From: an uncultured delta proteobacterium
GTDB lineage: Bacteria; Desulfobacterota; Binatia; Binatales; Binataceae
DNA length: 64,000 nucleotides
NCBI GenBank assembly: GCA_963724765.1
Contig: CAVRVY010000003.1
Location: forward strand, 160,001 to 224,000
Direction: 5' to 3'
Part shown: piece by piece, positions 37,614 through 58,811 of the stretch
Numbering within the stretch: position 1 is the first letter of the stretch
Layout: the number at the start of each line of letters is the position of its first letter
Translations under genes and position numbers: made by a program
The notes under the pieces: generated by a model
Databases searched by the model: none
Told to the model about the DNA's origin: nothing
What the model saw: the letters and a program-made list of their open reading frames with translations, nothing else

Positions 37614-38713
37614 TGTGCCTCCCAAAAACCTTATCCCGGATGACGCGCGGGTAAGCGTATGGTAATGAAGCGGCCGATGGTGGCGTTTCTGAGCCAGCTG
37701 CTGCTTGCTATCCGGTCGCGGTTCACGGGGCGCGCGCGGCTTGAGGCCGAGAATCTCCTCCTGCGCCAACAACTGGTAGTTCTGCGGCGCAAGTTCCCGA
37801 CGCGCGTGAGACTGTGGAACATCGATCGCTTGCTGTTGGTATGGCTGTATCGACTGTACCCGTCGCTCCTGGACGCGATCACCATCGTCCAGCCGGAGAC
37901 CGTGATCCGCTGGCACCGACGCGGTTTCCGCGCCTATTGGCGCTGGAAGTCCCGCCACGTCGGCGGCCGTCCAAGGATCGATTGCGAGATGCGAGCGCTG
38001 ATCCGGCGGGGATGAGCCGCGAGAACCCGCTGTGGGGCGCACCGCGGATCCACGGCGAATTGTTGATGCTTGGAATCGAGGTCGCTGAATCAACCGTCGG
38101 CAGGTATATGGTCTGGCGCCGCCGACCACCGTCCCAAGGTTGGAAGACTTTCCTGCGCAATCACGTTGGCGGCATCGCTTCGCTGGATCTGTTCGTCGTA
38201 CCCACGTCTCGTTCAAGCTGCTGTACGGCTTGGTGATCCTGCGTCACGCCCGCAGGCGACTAGTCGCGATCAGCGTCACTACCAATCCGACTGCCGAGTG
38301 GATCGCTGGACAGGTGACTGACGCTTTCCCCTGGGACGAAGCGCCGCGTCACCTGATTCGCGACCGCGACGGGGGCCTTCGGCCCAGCCTACACCCATCG
38401 CATTCGGGCAATGGGGATCCGCGATCATCCGACCGCGCCGCGTTCACCGTGGCAGAACGGCCACGTCGAGCGCCTCATCGGCTCGATCCGGCGCGAAAGC
38501 CTCGATCACTTGGTCGTGTTCGACGAAGCGCAGTTGCGTCGCGTTCTGAAGAATTACGTTTCTTATTACAATCGGGTCCGAACGCATCTCTCATTGGACA
38601 AGAATGCGCCGGATTTTCGACGCCCACAGAAGCTCGGCCCCATCGCAGCCATCTCAATTCTGGGTGGGCTGCACCACCAATATGTAAGGGTTTAGGTTTT
38701 GACTAAGCACAAC
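37611..38713 (+). mobile_element. Integrase-core (rve) transposable element; transposase (37659-38695) frameshifted
   Basis: Ends TGTTGTGCCTCCCAAAAACC / GGTTTTGACTAAGCACAAC; LEAENL.LRQQL, ENPLWGAPRIHGEL, LIRDRD, SPWQNG.VER.IGSIRRE, GGLHHQY. Confidence 0.85.
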
Positions 38714-38931: not shown

Positions 38932-38987
38932 CCTGTGCCGTGCCTAGTCAAAACCTAGACCCGGACGTATTGATGATGAATTCCGCC
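38932..38987 (-). mobile_element. Solo right end of the same rve element family, inverted
   Basis: GTGCCTAGTCAAAACCTAGACCCGGACGTATTGATGATG encodes HHQYVRV-stop on the minus strand. Confidence 0.75.
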
Positions 38988-39740
38988 GGGACTGGTATCG
39001 CTGCTCTTTATCCAAGATAAGTCCGGACTTCATTGTAATACGAGGCGCACACCTTTAGAACGTCGTGCAAGTGCGCCTAGCCGAACACGATTAGGTAGTC
39101 GAGAGATTCGCGACAGATCGATCCGGTGAGCCGCCGGTCAGCGTGGCCATTCGGAGCAGAAAGACCATTGAGTTGCAAACACGAAGGCAACGGTTCTTGA
39201 TGGCGATTGCCGTATTCCACATTCGTGCAGTGGGGATCCGAGATCACCCTCTCGCCCCACGCTCACGGAGTCAGATTCAGGATTTAAAAAGGTGCCCGGC
39301 GGTTCAAGGAGACCGCTAGATGACCGTCGCCGGGCCACTCATGCGATACGAAGTCCGCCGCATCACGCTTGGGCGTCGCCCTGTTTGCGACCGCGCGCGA
39401 TTCGAGACAGGTCGCGTTGGTCCAAAGTCGCACCGATTTTCATCACCGCGGTCCACGATCAGGCTGACACCTCGAACTCATCCGCGCCTTTGCGAGCCGT
39501 CCGGACCACCCTTTGCGTCTCCGTGCGCCCGGATTATTAATAGATTTTTGAGAAGCGACAGGCGGCGAAGGCTCTTTGGACGCCACGCAGGACGCCGTAA
39601 ACTGAACCCTGGCCGCGCCCTTGAAAAGACGCACAACTTGGCCTAAACCGTCAAGCAACCGTGAGGCAAAACGGAAATTCCGGCCACAACCCGTTAGCAG
39701 GCATTGTCCTTAAGAACATACTTTCATTTTGGGGGCATGA

Positions 39741-52836: not shown

Positions 52837-53881
52837 ATGAAAGTTACAACGTTAGGAATTGATCTAGCAAAGAACGTGTTCCGGGTGCATGGCTGCGATG
52901 CGAGCGGCAAGGTGGTAGTGAGCAAATCGCTTACGCGGCGACAGCTTCAGGTATTGGTTGCCAACCTACCGCCCTGCTTGGTCGGGATGGAGGCGTGTGC
53001 TACGGCGCGCTACTGGGCGCGAGAAATTCAAAAGCACGGCCACGAGGTGCGGTTGATGGCGCCCCAGTTCGTGCGTCCCTATGTAAAGGCCAACAAGAAC
53101 GACACCCGCGATGCCGAGGCTATCTGCGAAGCGGTGCGGCGGCCGACCATGCGTTTCGTCGCGGTGAAAAGCCCGGCGCAGCAGGACGTGCAGGCGCTGC
53201 ATCGGGTTCGTCAACAGCTGGTCAAGGAGTTGACGGCACTGAGCAATCAAGTGCGCGGCCTGCTCGCCGAGTATGGGTTGGCAATTCCGTTGGGTTTCGC
53301 GGCGCTGCGGCGCGCGCTGCCTAGGATTGTCGCAGAGGACGACAACGGGCTCAGCGGTTTGATGCGCGAATTGGTACTCGACCTCAGAGAACGGTTCGAC
53401 CACACGGAGCAGCGGCTGCGCCGCTACAACCAGCAGATCATTCAACTGCTCCACCATGATGAGCGCTGCCAGCGCCTGGCTGAAGTGCCGGGGGTAGGTC
53501 CGCTGACCGCCACAGCAGTGGTCGCGGCCGTTGGTAATGCCCGGGACTTCAGAAGTGGGCGCGAGCTGGCTGCCTACCTTGGGTTGGTTCCACGCCACCG
53601 CGCCAGCGGTGGGCCGTACTGTTATGCTCGGCATCAGCAAGCGGGGTGATAGCTATCTGCGAACCCTTTTGGTCAATGGCGCACGTGCCGCAATGCGTAA
53701 CGTCGGGCGCCGCCGGGATCCGCGCAGCGTCTGGGCCAGTCGTCTCAAACTACGTCGGGGGGCCAATGTTGCAACGGTGGCGCTGGCCAACAAGAACGCT
53801 CGCGTGATGTGGGCATTATTGACTCGAGGTGAGAACTACCGCGCCGTACCCCACCCCGCGCGGATTCCGCAACGCGGCTGA
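52837..53881 (+). CDS. IS110 (DEDD) recombinase, frameshift near 53612
   Basis: GIDLAK, GMEAC, KNDTRDA, VPGVG, GLVP...SGG, GDSYLR.LLV.GA, ALANKNAR. Confidence 0.9.
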
Positions 53882-56270: not shown

Positions 56271-56713
56271 ACGGTTGAAAACAATATGGTTCCGTCAAAT
56301 GTTGCAAGCTGTCCTCCCCTGGAAAGTCCCGTTATGCAGCGGTGGGAAGGGAGGTGATGGTCTTACTTGTGGTTTCTCAAAAACCTAATCCGCGATGGTT
56401 TCGATGATAGCCTACCGTGCGTTGGCGATGCCGACAAGCGAATCATTCCTGGTGACCCGAAGCGGCGGGACCCCAACTCGCACCACGCTCCTGTTGGACG
56501 ATCGCGTGGCTTCTCAAAACCCGGTCCACGCAAAAAGCGACATCCTGATTCGCGCATGAGCGGGGTCTTGGTGAGGCCCGAGACTCCAGACGGCGGACTT
56601 CGCACCGCAACGGCGATCGGCAGACGATTGTTACGCGCTTGCTGGAGACCTGTCGCTACCGAAAACCTCGTCCGGGGTGACGGAGTGCAACAGCTGTTGT
56701 GCTTAGTCAAAAC

Positions 56714-57620
56714 CTTGTATCTGCAAATCGGCGTATGAAGGTAGTAGCGGGCGCGGCAGACCGTTAAAACCTGGGTCGGCAGAGACCGTGGTTTAGCCAG
56801 GATCGTCGCGTCCGCTAAATCAAGCGTCCACAGCTCGAACAGTTGACGGGGCCGCGCGCAAGGCACGAGCCCGCATGTACAAGGACGGGTTAGGACGCGG
56901 AGTGAGGAGCAGCGGGGTGATGGGCGAAGAGGTGTATGTTGGGATCGATGTAAGCAAGACCGAGCTAGTGGTGGCGGTGCGCCCCAGCGGACAGAGCTTC
57001 ACGCTGGCCTACGATCGGGTGGGGCTGAAGCACTTGGTGGGTCGTTTGGGCAAACTGCAGCCCAAGCTGGTGGTGGTGGAAGCGACTGGCGGATTGCAAC
57101 GGCAGGTGGCGGCGGCGCTGTGGACCGCGGGGGTCGCGGTGGCAGCCGTCAATCCGAGCTGGGTACGGAGCTACGCGCGGGGTAGCGGACTATTGGCGAA
57201 GACCGACCGCATCGATGCCAAGCTACTCGCACTGTTTGCGCAACGCGAGCAACCCGCGCCGCGGCCGCCGCTGGATGCGGAGACCCAGGCGCTGCAGGAA
57301 TTGGCCACCCGGCGCGACCAATTGCTCGAGATGCGCGTGGCGGAGCAACAGCGGCTGCAGCGCGCAGGTCCGTAAAGAGTTGCGCCACCATATCGCTTAC
57401 CTAGAGGGCCGGATCACAGAGATCGACGATGACATCGATAAGTCCGTGCGGCGCTCCGCGGCCTGGCGGCGCAAGAGCGAGGTGCTCCGCAGCTTTCCGG
57501 GCGTGGGCAAGGTGTTCTGCGCCACGGTGCTGTCCAAGTTGCCGGAACTGGGCACGCTCAGCGGTAAAGCCGCCGCAGCCCTGGTCGGAATCGCTCCGTT
57601 CCCCGATGATAGCGGCGGCC
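56714..57620 (+). mobile_element. IS110-family element (IS621-like left end), 3'-truncated; transposase from 56920, frameshift ~57365
   Basis: CT-TGTAT left end; GIDVSK, VEATGG, AKTDRIDA, PGVG, GIAP...DSG. Confidence 0.88.
56735..56900 (+). ncRNA. Putative bridge RNA in the IS110 left non-coding end
   Basis: Ordered guide-like segments GTTAAAACCT, GGTTTAG, ACAGTTGAC, TACAAGG upstream of the recombinase gene. Confidence 0.72.
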
Positions 57621-58169
57621 GCGGCGCGGGTTGCTCGCGTTGCGCAAACAGTGCGAGTAGCTTGGCATCGATGCGGTCGGTCTTCGCCAATAGTCCGCTA
57701 CCCCGCGCGTAGCTCCGTACCCAGCTCGGATTGACGGCTGCCACCGCGACCCCCGCGGTCCACAGCGCCGCCGCCACCTGCCGTTGCAATCCGCCAGTCG
57801 CTTCCACCACCACCAGCTTGGGCTGCAGTTTGCCCAAACGACCCACCAAGTGCTTCAGCCCCACCCGATCGTAGGCCAGCGTGAAGCTCTGTCCGCTGGG
57901 GCGCACCGCCACCACTAGCTCGGTCTTGCTTACATCGATCCCAACATACACCTCTTCGCCCATCACCCCGCTGCTCCTCACTCCGCGTCCTAACCCGTCC
58001 TTGTACATGCGGGCTCGTGCCTTGCGCGCGGCCCCGTCAACTGTTCGAGCTGTGGACGCTTGATTTAGCGGACGCGACGATCCTGGCTAAACCACGGTCT
58101 CTGCCGACCCAGGTTTTAACGGTCTGCCGCGCCCGCTACTACCTTCATACGCCGATTTGCAGATACAAG
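57611..58169 (-). mobile_element. Second, inverted partial copy of the same IS110 (left end plus ~117 N-terminal codons)
   Basis: Reverse complement of 56714-57272. Confidence 0.85.
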
Positions 58170-58241
58170 GTTTTGACTAAGCACAGGGTATTTGACGTTG
58201 TGCTGATCCGCGATGTACATGTGAACAAAAGGAGACCATCG

Positions 58242-58811
58242 ATGGATCGCATTAGCAAAGTTCCGTTGGAGCTTCTTGATCCGGAAATGAAGGCAATAAT
58301 GCGCGCGAGCGACGAAGCGCTCGGCGGTTCGGAGTGGATTCAATACTACGCGCACACGCCTGATCTGTTTAAGCAATTCGTGAAATTCTACTACGCTCAC
58401 ATCATGAACGATGACGCGGGGATCAGCGTCAAGCTCACCGAACTGATTCGGCATAAAGTAAATCAATACAATCAGTGCCAGCTTTGAATGCGGGCGGTTT
58501 ATGCCTCGGCGAGGCAGCAGGGACTTACGGACGAGATGCTCGCGGCACTTCCATCGTTCGAGCAGAGCGCACTGTTCAGCCCACGGGAGAAGGCGGCGCT
58601 CAAGTTCGCTGAAGTGCTGACGAGCGAGCATCGGAAGACTTCCGACGAATTGTTTATCCGCCTGCGGGAGCATTTTTCAGAAAGTGAAATTCTTCAACTC
58701 GGTTGGAGAATAGCAATGTTTATCGGATATGGACGGCTGTCCTTTGCCTTAGGCCTGCAAGATGTAGGCAAGCTATGCTTCGTACCCGAAAAACACTCTG
58801 AGTTAAGGTGA
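58242..58811 (+). CDS. AhpD/carboxymuconolactone decarboxylase family protein, probable selenoprotein (CxxU)
   Basis: GGAG RBS; ELIRHKVNQYNQCQL-TGA(58485)-MRAV continues in frame to FSPREKAAL.FAE, LREHFSESEILQL; hairpin TGCCTC-GGC-GAGGCA at 58502-58516. Confidence 0.8.

What the first reader, a model, noticed from the sequence alone, without database searches (positions are those of the whole stretch)
56698..56900. IS110 bridge RNA apparently programmed against the terminus of another transposon, with an empty target in the same window
Seen: the IS110 starts at CT-TGTAT (56714) directly after GTCAAAAC, which is the terminal motif of the rve element. Its upstream non-coding region holds four segments in order: GTTAAAACCT (56763-56772; 9/10 to GTCAAAACCT, the mismatch being a G-U wobble), GGTTTAG (56790-56796; reverse complement CTAAACC), ACAGTTGAC (56839-56847) and TACAAGG (56878-56884; reverse complement CCTTGTA, matching the element's own left junction). 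The first two spell the target GTCAAAAC-CT-AAACC. That sequence occurs unoccupied at 38689-38703 (minus strand), spanning the stop codon and right end of the rve element; a one-mismatch copy lies at 38947-38961. Established: IS621-type IS110 elements use a bridge RNA with left/right target and donor guides around a CT core. Inference: this IS110 is an RNA-guided parasite of rve-element ends, using them as a safe harbour or vehicle.
Basis: partly seen in the sequence, partly recalled or inferred. Interest (0 to 1): 0.88.

Follow-up and report, generated by a model that had tools for sequence, protein, structure and literature searches.

The report
Bridge-RNA IS110 aimed at another transposon's end
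A small jumping gene of the IS110 family carries a guide RNA that matches the tip of a second, multi-copy jumping gene in the same genome, a kind of targeting already known; the copy in this window is a broken, mirror-image relic.

Summary

- **Guide positions.** The four segments sit where the guides of an IS621-type bridge RNA sit. LTG and RTG lie in the first internal loop, LDG and RDG in the second, in a structure with compensatory base changes across 28 related left ends.
- **Covariation with flanks.** Across independent relatives the two target guides track the real flanks. RTG matched RT at 81 of 90 non-core positions (permuted mean 27.5). LTG matched LT at 90 of 112 (permuted mean 52.6).
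- **Direct proof of the target.** An intact copy on another contig lies exactly as predicted, between TGTGCTTAGTCAAAAC|CT and CT|AAACCC, inside the right terminal inverted repeat of an IS481-like rve element.
- **Specificity.** The 12 bases AAAACCTAAACC occur 7 times in the genome, all in empty rve right ends. One of them is window 38689-38703.

It consists of two left ends facing each other (perfect 575-nt inverted arms, 56698-57272 and 57611-58185). The recombinase gene is frameshifted and truncated, and there is no right end.

IS110/IS1111 elements that target the inverted repeats of other transposons are already known (IS1383 in IS1384; IS4321/IS5075 in Tn21). The RNA-guided mechanism has been known since 2024. 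This is a new member of a known kind, of moderate interest.

The parts
56651..56697 (+). Left flank: first ~47 nt (left inverted repeat) of a diverged relative of the rve element. It is cut off by the unit described below.
   Evidence: Matches the left ends of rve relatives at G000:C4:1739958 and C4:1658654. Logan contigs of several runs branch at 56650/56651.
56698..56713 (+). Outer 16 nt of the rve right inverted repeat (TGTGCTTAGTCAAAAC). This is the left target (LT) stub left outside the IS110.
   Evidence: 16 of 16 identical to the tips of 7 empty rve right ends. The same stub flanks the C4 and C3:45k copies.
56714..56715 (+). CT core dinucleotide.
   Evidence: CT is present at both junctions of the intact C4 copy. 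CT precedes TGTAT in the homologues.
56716..56919 (+). IS110 left non-coding end, which encodes the bridge RNA.
   Evidence: Aligned with 27 other left ends. Structure tested.
56749..56813 (+). Target-binding stem-loop. Basal stem 56749-56757 with 56805-56813, and 56759-56762 with 56801-56804. Inner hairpin 56773-56788.
   Evidence: Column mapping. In helix 1, 8 of 9 pairs show changes on both sides. The inner hairpin folds in 28 of 28 sequences.
56763..56772 (+). Left target guide (LTG), GTTAAAACCT, in the same sense as the LT top strand.
   Evidence: Matches GTCAAAACCT at 9 of 10 positions.
56790..56796 (+). Right target guide (RTG), GGTTTAG, the reverse complement of CT-AAACC.
   Evidence: Matches the right flank of the C4 copy at 7 of 7 positions.
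56833..56891 (+). Donor-binding stem-loop. Basal stem 56833-56836 with 56887-56891. Inner hairpin 56849-56872.
56838..56848 (+). Left donor guide (LDG) region, AACAGTTGACG. ACAGTTG matches the right-end terminus.
   Evidence: The T/C position agrees with the right end in 22 of 22 rows that have a right end.
56873..56885 (+). Right donor guide (RDG) region, GCATGTACAAGGA. GTACAAG pairs with CTTGTAT (6 base pairs plus one G-T).
56920..57621 (+). Recombinase pseudogene. Residues 1-150 are in one frame. An 8-nt deletion near 57362 shifts the frame. The gene is cut off at about residue 238, so roughly the last 80 residues are missing.
   Evidence: The deletion allele is also present in a contig of run X3 with no differences.
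57611..57621 (.). 11-nt overlap (AGCGGCGGCCG) at the joint between the forward copy and the inverted copy.
   Evidence: Read. No independent contig bridges this joint.
57611..58185 (-). Inverted duplicate holding the rve stub, CT, the IS110 left end with a second bridge-RNA gene, and the first 266 nt of the recombinase gene. LTG at 58111-58120, RTG at 58088-58094.
   Evidence: Perfect 575-nt inverted repeat. Mirror coordinates.
37614..38713 (+). IS481-like rve element (this copy is frameshifted). Its right end carries the empty target.
   Evidence: Intact 344-aa transposase of sister copies. Pfam rve_3, with NCBIfam IS481 as best hit but below its cut-off.
38689..38703 (-). Unoccupied exact target GTCAAAAC-CT-AAACC. 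The core is the complement of the AG of the rve TAG stop codon (38693-38695).
38947..38961 (+). One-mismatch target in the right end of a degenerate second rve-type copy that reads leftward from about 39250.

Best explanation
56716-56919 is the left end of an IS110-group insertion sequence. [quoted passage not shown] Together they specify AAAAC-CT-AAACC. That site lies 16 bp inside the right terminal inverted repeat of a multi-copy IS481-like rve element, and its core overlaps the element's TAG stop codon.

By homology with IS621 (inferred, not shown here), the element leaves as a right-end/CT/left-end circle. The bridge RNA pairs its donor loop with that junction and its target loop with an rve right end. 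The DEDD/Ser recombinase then exchanges strands at CT. The insertion has a fixed orientation, duplicates CT, keeps the rve stop codon, and moves the outer 16 bp of the rve repeat 1.25 kb away.

The window copy is not an active element. It is a relic made of two such left junctions in mirror orientation, joined inside the recombinase gene at an 11-nt overlap. The only intact copy in this genome is at G000:C4:1579275-1580527.
For: **Recombinase.** The intact C4 protein P0001 has PF01548 and PF02371. It scores 213.9 bits on NF033542 against a cut-off of 140. It matches the solved IS621 and ISCro4 recombinases at E 1.8e-31 and 3e-32.

**RNA structure.** 28 left ends were aligned.
- RNAalifold gives 22 pairs, 15 of them with changes on both sides.
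- 94.3% of cells are paired, against 83.4% in shuffles (0 of 500 reach it) and 39-43% when the partners are slid.
- Inner hairpins fold in 28 of 28 (target loop) and 26 of 28 (donor loop) sequences.
- The guide segments fall between the basal stems and the inner hairpins. This is the layout described in the passages I read of PMC11208160.

**Guide code.** After dropping 5 rows of the same close lineage, 23 rows remained.
- 18 had a complete right flank. RTG matched at 81 of 90 non-core positions (permuted mean 27.5, maximum 50, 0 of 10,000 as high).
- 16 had a complete left flank. LTG matched at 90 of 112 positions (permuted mean 52.6, maximum 71).
- Further examples within the same bacterial family, with different targets, also match (L066, L067, L069, L077).

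**Own genome.**
- The C4 copy lies between TGTGCTTAGTCAAAAC|CT and CT|AAACCCTTACATATTGG.
- 4 of 4 left junctions in G000 carry the same stub.
- The 12-mer target occurs 7 times, all in rve right ends.

**Other genomes.** All 11 distinct left-flank contexts of the close lineage that I could read begin with a TGT... 16-mer resembling an inverted repeat. Three right flanks run into rve-type transposase C-termini.
Against: - No RNA or recombination data exist for this element, so expression and activity are inferred.
- In the single-sequence minimum-energy fold, LTG and RTG pair with each other (AAACC with GGUUU), and the fold's z-score is only -1.44.
- The sigma-70-type promoter that spans the circle junction in 15 of 15 distant homologues is missing in this lineage: 0 of 4 reach 9 of 12 matches. 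No promoter-like site was found in 56600-57000.
- The last two bases of the LDG (AC) do not match the CT core. In the C4 copy the LDG also has one mismatch to its own right end (ACAGTTG against ACGGTTG).
- The C4 right end lacks about 9 nt that are present in L006-L008, so even that copy may be impaired.
- One homologue (L042) matches its flanks poorly, at 3 of 7 and 4 of 7 positions.
- The palindromic joint is not confirmed by any independent contig.
Confidence: 0.9

Rival explanations
1. Hitch-hiking only. The IS110 entered one rve copy once, and the several rve::IS110 junctions arose by duplication or movement of that composite rather than by repeated RNA-guided insertion.
For: G000 has only 3 occupied loci. 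The C4 and C3:45k left parts are identical over 286 nt. The region is dense with nested insertion-sequence fragments.
Against: - The guides match the target, and matching guide-flank pairs recur in relatives with other targets.
- The two host rve copies differ at 4 of 197 positions, while the IS110 parts differ at 0 of 286.
- The window lineage is only 91% identical to the C4 lineage yet sits in the same site.
- Sister copies in other genomes sit in variant repeats (TGTGCCTTCTCAAAAC, TGTCCCTTGTCAAACC) with different outside flanks.
Confidence: 0.07
2. The mirror-image structure 56698-58185 is an assembly artefact. Two separate stub-IS110 junctions would have been joined wrongly through the repeat, and the genome would really hold ordinary copies there.
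For: - No Logan contig of the 4 runs laid bridges 57621/57622 with 31 or more letters on both sides.
- X1, the best holder, has no cover over 57607-57748.
- The arms are 100% identical.
- The genome is a metagenome bin with 5.16% contamination.
Against: - The joint lies at an 11-nt overlap inside the gene, with a 338-nt unique centre. That resembles illegitimate recombination between two inverted copies more than a fold-back read.
- Both outer junctions lead into different unique flanks.
- A perfect contig covers the left junction 56400-56715 in X1. The 8-nt deletion allele is covered by a perfect X3 contig.
- A 4-contig, 5.4-Mb assembly suggests long reads, which would span 575-nt arms. That is inference.
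Confidence: 0.2
3. The matches are coincidence, and the site is chosen by protein-DNA contacts alone.
For: The target is A-rich and short. LTG positions -6 and -7 often mismatch.
Against: Permutation tests gave 0 of 10,000 for both guides. Different targets go with different guides in sister elements.
Confidence: 0.02

Closest known systems
IS621 of Escherichia coli (IS110 group; bridge RNA; PDB 8wt6)
   Same: - Homologous recombinase (E 1.8e-31).
- Non-coding RNA encoded in the left end, with two stem-loops that each carry an internal loop.
- LTG in the sense of the target, RTG as its reverse complement.
- CT core, and a left end that starts with TGTAT.
- Variable first loop and conserved second loop, as described in the passages I read of PMC11208160.
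   Different: - The target is the inverted repeat of another insertion sequence, not a REP element.
- Only about 33 nt lie between the core and the target stem-loop, so the 5' stem-loop described for IS621 may be absent (not tested).
- No sigma-70-type junction promoter in this lineage.
- The effective left guide is shorter, because positions -6 and -7 often mismatch.
[quoted passage not shown]
   Same: A member of the IS110/IS1111 family that inserts at one fixed place in the terminal inverted repeat of another transposon. I saw these two works only as titles in the reference lists of PMC11208160 and PMC11187229. PMC11187229 states in its text that the IS4321 target logo was recovered from nearly 900 insertions.
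   Different: - The host element here is an IS481-like rve element of an uncultured Binataceae-type lineage (record titles).
- IS4321/IS5075 belong to the IS1111 group, with the non-coding region downstream and subterminal repeats. The element here is of the IS110 type, with the RNA upstream.
- I did not read the two original papers.
ISCro4 transposase (PDB 9t56)
   Same: Best-scoring solved relative of P0001 (E 3e-32, residues 3-306).
   Different: Only the protein sequence was compared. Its RNA and its target were not examined here.

Membership tests
IS110 family, IS110 group (bridge-RNA-guided recombinase elements) | [quoted passage not shown] | tested here: met
   P0001 (the C4 copy) matches PF01548 at E 1.6e-21 and PF02371 at E 4.5e-17, and NF033542 at 213.9 bits against a cut-off of 140. 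The window copy keeps only residues 1 to about 238, with a frameshift.
IS110 family, IS110 group (bridge-RNA-guided recombinase elements) | Sequence homology to a recombinase shown experimentally to use a bridge RNA | tested here: met
   IS621 (8wt6) at E 1.8e-31 and ISCro4 (9t56) at E 3e-32.
IS110 family, IS110 group (bridge-RNA-guided recombinase elements) | Long non-coding left end upstream of the gene that folds into two stem-loops, each with an internal loop | tested here: met
   22 consensus pairs, 15 with compensatory changes. 94.3% paired against 83.4% in shuffles, 0 of 500. Inner hairpins in 28 of 28 and 26 of 28 sequences.
IS110 family, IS110 group (bridge-RNA-guided recombinase elements) | The first loop carries an LTG in the sense of the left target plus core, and an RTG that is the reverse complement of core plus right target | tested here: met
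   81 of 90 and 90 of 112 non-core positions match; 0 of 10,000 permutations reach this. In this element the LTG matches at 9 of 10 positions and the RTG at 7 of 7.
IS110 family, IS110 group (bridge-RNA-guided recombinase elements) | The second loop carries an LDG that matches the right-end terminus and an RDG that matches the start of the left end | tested here: met
   The T/C position of ACAGT(T/C)G agrees between LDG and right end in 22 of 22 rows, 6 of them with C. The RDG reverse complement CTTGTA(C) compares with CTTGTAT at the left end. Caveat: the two core positions of the LDG (AC) do not match CT.
IS110 family, IS110 group (bridge-RNA-guided recombinase elements) | Core dinucleotide present at both junctions | tested here: met
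   CT lies at both ends of the C4 copy.
IS110 family, IS110 group (bridge-RNA-guided recombinase elements) | Promoter rebuilt across the right-end/left-end circle junction | tested here: not met
   0 of 4 junctions of this lineage reach 9 of 12 sigma-70 matches. 15 of 15 more distant homologues do, as TTGACA-17-TATNNT. This is a consensus scan only.
IS110 family, IS110 group (bridge-RNA-guided recombinase elements) | The RNA is expressed, binds the recombinase and directs recombination | not testable with these tools
   No RNA runs hold the stretch (0 rows on record as RNA).
[quoted passage not shown] | Insertion at one fixed position and orientation inside the terminal repeat of another mobile element, with empty copies of the same repeat available | tested here: met
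   4 of 4 junctions in G000 are at the same position. 7 exact empty sites exist, all rve right ends. The same holds in other genomes.
Rfam RNA families | A match at gathering score to a curated family | tested here: not met
   The only hit is sX15 (RF02234) at 24.5 bits against a gathering score of 55, E 0.24, on the opposite strand.

The most novel reading that the evidence does not exclude
The IS110 lineage acts as an RNA-guided hyperparasite that disables IS481-like elements. It splits their right inverted repeat 16 bp from the tip while leaving the host transposase reading frame, stop codon included, untouched. The mirror-image relic in this window has two bridge-RNA genes bounded by inverted rve-repeat stubs. 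On this reading it is a non-autonomous unit that still supplies target-programmed bridge RNA in trans, or that the rve transposase can move.
Probability: 0.1. Interest if true: 0.6.

Novelty: new member of a known kind. Interest (0 to 1): 0.35.

Why it matters
- It is a clean natural example of a bridge RNA programmed against the end of another insertion sequence, in a little-studied uncultured lineage.
- An intact copy, dead copies and seven empty targets lie in one genome.
- The relatives collected here give about 20 natural guide-target pairs with both flanks known. These could serve as test cases for guide rules: distal LTG positions are often mismatched, and RTG reads 7 nt.
- The finding shows how one mobile element can live on, and probably cripple, another.
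- It does not change the current picture. Both the behaviour (known since 2001-2003) and the mechanism (2024) are established.

Tried and rejected
- **Rfam scan.** No bridge-RNA family matched. The only hit was a sub-threshold sX15 match on the opposite strand.
- **Single-sequence fold.** It was not informative on its own. The z-score was -1.44, and LTG and RTG pair with each other because the target repeats AAAC(C). The family consensus was used instead.
- **Simple promoter and terminator scan of 56600-57000.** Nothing found.
- **Public runs.** 20 rows hold part of the stretch, none on record as RNA. I laid 4 of the 24 listed runs (X1, X3, X5, X6). No contig bridges the inversion joint, so the palindrome is neither confirmed nor refuted. 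X1 has no cover over 57607-57748.
- **Forward test of the guide code in the genome of L009.** I searched for its left flank joined to the right target predicted from its RTG. There was one hit with 1 mismatch, where my own arithmetic expects about 0.1 by chance, and one hit with 2 mismatches, in unrelated contexts. This is suggestive at most and is not used as evidence.
- **Target-site duplications of the rve element.** No consistent duplication was seen in 8 copies with both ends found. They could not be used to ask whether the palindromic unit was moved by the rve transposase.
- **Flanks in relatives.** The left and right flanks of the unit are not adjacent in any of the 20 relatives searched, so no empty site was recovered.
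- **Literature.** The searches found no paper that reports an IS110 element targeting IS481-type ends. This covers only the held library, and supplements were not opened.
Full report
**What is in the window.**

GTCAAAAC lies at 56706-56713, CT at 56714-56715, and TGTAT at 56716. The four segments lie at 56763-56772, 56790-56796, 56839-56847 and 56878-56884. The 15-mer GTCAAAACCTAAACC lies unoccupied on the minus strand at 38689-38703, and a one-mismatch copy lies at 38947-38961.

Each arm starts with the 16-nt tip of the rve repeat (TGTGCTTAGTCAAAAC). CT, the IS110 left end and the start of the recombinase gene follow.

- The forward copy runs to about 57621. It carries an 8-nt deletion near 57362 relative to the intact sister copy, which shifts the frame.
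- It then switches into the inverted copy at an 11-nt overlap, AGCGGCGGCCG, at 57611-57621.
- There is no right end in the window.

The window therefore holds a dead relic with two mirror-image bridge-RNA genes, not an element.

**The intact copy and the flanks.**

The own genome (4 contigs, 5.4 Mb) has one intact copy, at G000:C4:1579275-1580527 on the minus strand. It is 1253 bp long and 91% identical to the window copy.

- Its 318-aa product P0001 has the two IS110 domains. It passes the NCBIfam model 'IS110 family RNA-guided transposase' at 213.9 bits against a cut-off of 140. It is homologous to the solved IS621 and ISCro4 recombinases.
- The copy lies between TGTGCTTAGTCAAAAC|CT and CT|AAACCCTTACATATTGG.
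- A third, partial copy at C3:45160-45445 has the same left junction. It is deleted into the rve body at an 11-nt overlap.
- In all, 4 of 4 left junctions in the genome carry the same stub. There is one right junction.

**The host element.**

The rve element is about 1.1 kb long. Its ends are TGTGCC...AAAACCT on the left and TGTGCTTAGTCAAAACCTAAACCC on the right, the latter read inward from the tip. Intact copies encode a 344-aa transposase. That protein has rve_3, and its best NCBIfam match is IS481, below that model's cut-off. I therefore call it IS481-like.

- The genome holds about 9 full-length copies and many fragments. The window copy is frameshifted.
- The 12 bases specified by the guides, AAAACCTAAACC, occur 7 times in the genome, all in empty rve right ends. 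Three further right ends have one mismatch to the 15-mer.
- The CT core is the complement of the AG of the transposase's TAG stop (38693-38695). Because CT is duplicated on insertion, the stop codon survives. The outer 16 bp of the repeat are moved 1.25 kb away.

**Is it a bridge RNA?**

I collected relatives in three ways:
- 10 loci from named MAGs;
- matches in 23 of 401 genomes of the phylum with the protein;
- matches in 18 of 121 genomes of the family with the left-end DNA.

I aligned 28 left ends.

- The consensus fold has 22 pairs, of which 15 show changes on both sides.
- On the named structure, 94.3% of cells pair, against 83.4% in shuffles (0 of 500 as high) and 39-43% when partners are slid by 1-3 columns.
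- The segments between the guides fold into hairpins in 28 of 28 (first loop) and 26 of 28 (second loop) sequences.

The four segments thus sit on the 5' and 3' sides of two internal loops. The first loop is variable and the second is conserved. This is the layout that Durrant et al. describe for IS621 in the passages I read of PMC11208160. [quoted passage not shown]

In the single-sequence minimum-energy fold of the window RNA, LTG and RTG pair with each other. This follows from the target repeating AAAC(C) on both sides of the core. It is not seen as a conserved stem.

**Do the guides track the flanks?**

I set the element boundaries by the conserved CTTGTAT at the left end and ACAGT(T/C)G-CT at the right end. 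I dropped the window and L005-L008, which belong to the same lineage as the C4 copy. That left 23 rows.

- 18 rows had a full 7-nt right flank. RTG matched at 81 of 90 non-core positions (permuted mean 27.5, maximum 50, 0 of 10,000 as high).
- 16 rows had a full 9-nt left flank. LTG matched at 90 of 112 non-core positions, taking the best of three registers in both the real and the permuted data (permuted mean 52.6, maximum 71).

Mismatches cluster at LTG positions -6 and -7. One row, L042, whose gene carries a stop, matches poorly.

More relatives from the same bacterial family have other guides and other flanks that match. In L066, CTCACCT matches at 7 of 7. In L067 the match is 8 of 8. In L069 and L077 it is 7 of 7.

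The LDG covaries with the right end at its one variable position in 22 of 22 rows, 6 of which carry C.

**The close lineage.**

All 11 distinct left-flank contexts of the close lineage that I could read begin with a TGT... 16-mer ending in (A)AAAC or AACC. They are the two window arms, C4, C3:45k, L006, L007/L062, L008/L061, L005/L064, L063, L079 and L076. The right flanks of L006, L007/L062 and L008 run into rve-type transposase C-termini.

That position is probably not needed.

**What argues for caution.**

- There is no evidence of expression or activity. None of the public runs that hold the stretch is on record as RNA.
- The sigma-70-type promoter that spans the circle junction in 15 of 15 distant homologues (TTGACA, 17 nt, TATNNT) is not present in this lineage, where 0 of 4 junctions qualify. 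No promoter-like site is found in the integrated left end.
- The C4 right end lacks about 9 nt found in L006-L008 and has one mismatch to its own LDG.
- No contig of the four runs laid bridges the mirror-image joint. A perfect contig of X1 covers the left junction 56400-56715, and a perfect contig of X3 covers the 8-nt deletion allele. X1 may be the source sample.
- The most economical origin of the mirror-image unit is two rve right ends facing outward in inverted orientation, each hit by the IS110, followed by a deletion between the two inverted IS110 copies at the 11-nt overlap. An arrangement of two outward-facing right ends is seen at C1:570791-572303. This origin is inference.

**Comparison and novelty.**

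The element works like IS621 and meets the family's sequence and RNA criteria. The junction promoter is the one tested feature not met.

Members of the IS110/IS1111 family that target the terminal repeats of other transposons are in print. IS1383 targets IS1384, and IS4321/IS5075 target Tn21-family transposons. I saw both only as titles in reference lists. The text of PMC11187229 states that the IS4321 target was recovered from nearly 900 insertions. My searches found no report of IS481-type ends as the target. The held library is partial, and supplements were not opened.

This is a new member of a known kind. The 'parasite of rve ends' reading is supported. 'Safe harbour' is plausible. 'Vehicle' has no support.

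**Tools.**

Noticed in passing
window 58242-58811 (+): A gene of the carboxymuconolactone decarboxylase (CMD/AhpD-like) family has an in-frame TGA at 58485-58487. The Pfam match (residues 40-124) runs across it, and the local motif reads C-Q-L-TGA, which would be CxxU if read as selenocysteine. The TGA is kept in the 89%-identical homologue of a same-genus genome (L055). This is a candidate selenoprotein. No SECIS element was looked for.
   Followed up: partly
window 52838-53880 (+): A second, unrelated IS110-family gene (NF033542, 281 bits, apparently frameshifted near 53613-53624). It has a short upstream region and a longer downstream non-coding region, as in IS1111-type elements. Its ends and target were not determined.
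   Followed up: no
window 56651-56697: The left flank of the mirror-image unit is itself the first ~47 nt of a diverged rve-family element, about 76% identical to the main one (compare G000:C4:1739958). The right flank does not continue it, so the locus has undergone more than one rearrangement.
   Followed up: partly
window 56739-56880 (-) and 58003-58144 (+): The only Rfam hit is Xanthomonas sRNA sX15, end to end but far below threshold (24.5 bits, E 0.24), on the strand opposite to the bridge RNA. PMC3300014 (passages read) says that sX15 and asX7 are complementary, plasmid-borne, and have 10 homologues in a Stenotrophomonas chromosome. sX15/asX7 may therefore mark an IS110-type left end. 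This is a lead only.
   Followed up: partly
window 38940-39250: A degenerate second rve-type copy faces the first one tail to tail, about 230 bp away. Its right end carries the one-mismatch target (38947-38961), and an rve-like reading-frame fragment lies at 39077-39247 (-).
   Followed up: partly
G000:C1:570791-572303: A full rve copy abuts an inverted 412-nt right-end fragment of another copy. This gives two outward-facing right ends, both exact empty IS110 targets. It is the kind of arrangement from which the window's mirror-image relic could have arisen.
   Followed up: no
G000:C1:654318-654970, C1:276320-276605, C4:1700478-1700771, C3:234910-235241: Fragments of other IS110-family genes lie directly beside rve fragments at several places. 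The association of the two families in this genome may therefore be wider than the one lineage studied.
   Followed up: no
L019, L025, L032 (left ends, about 20-40 nt after the core): Three distant homologues share GAGTTATCCATAG inside their left ends. From memory, this resembles a DnaA-box consensus. It was not tested.
   Followed up: no
L042 (G178:C54): One homologue has guides that fit its own flanks poorly (3 of 7 and 4 of 7), and its gene has an internal TGA. A sister copy in the same genome (L030) fits its flanks well. This may be decay, or insertion guided in trans.
   Followed up: no
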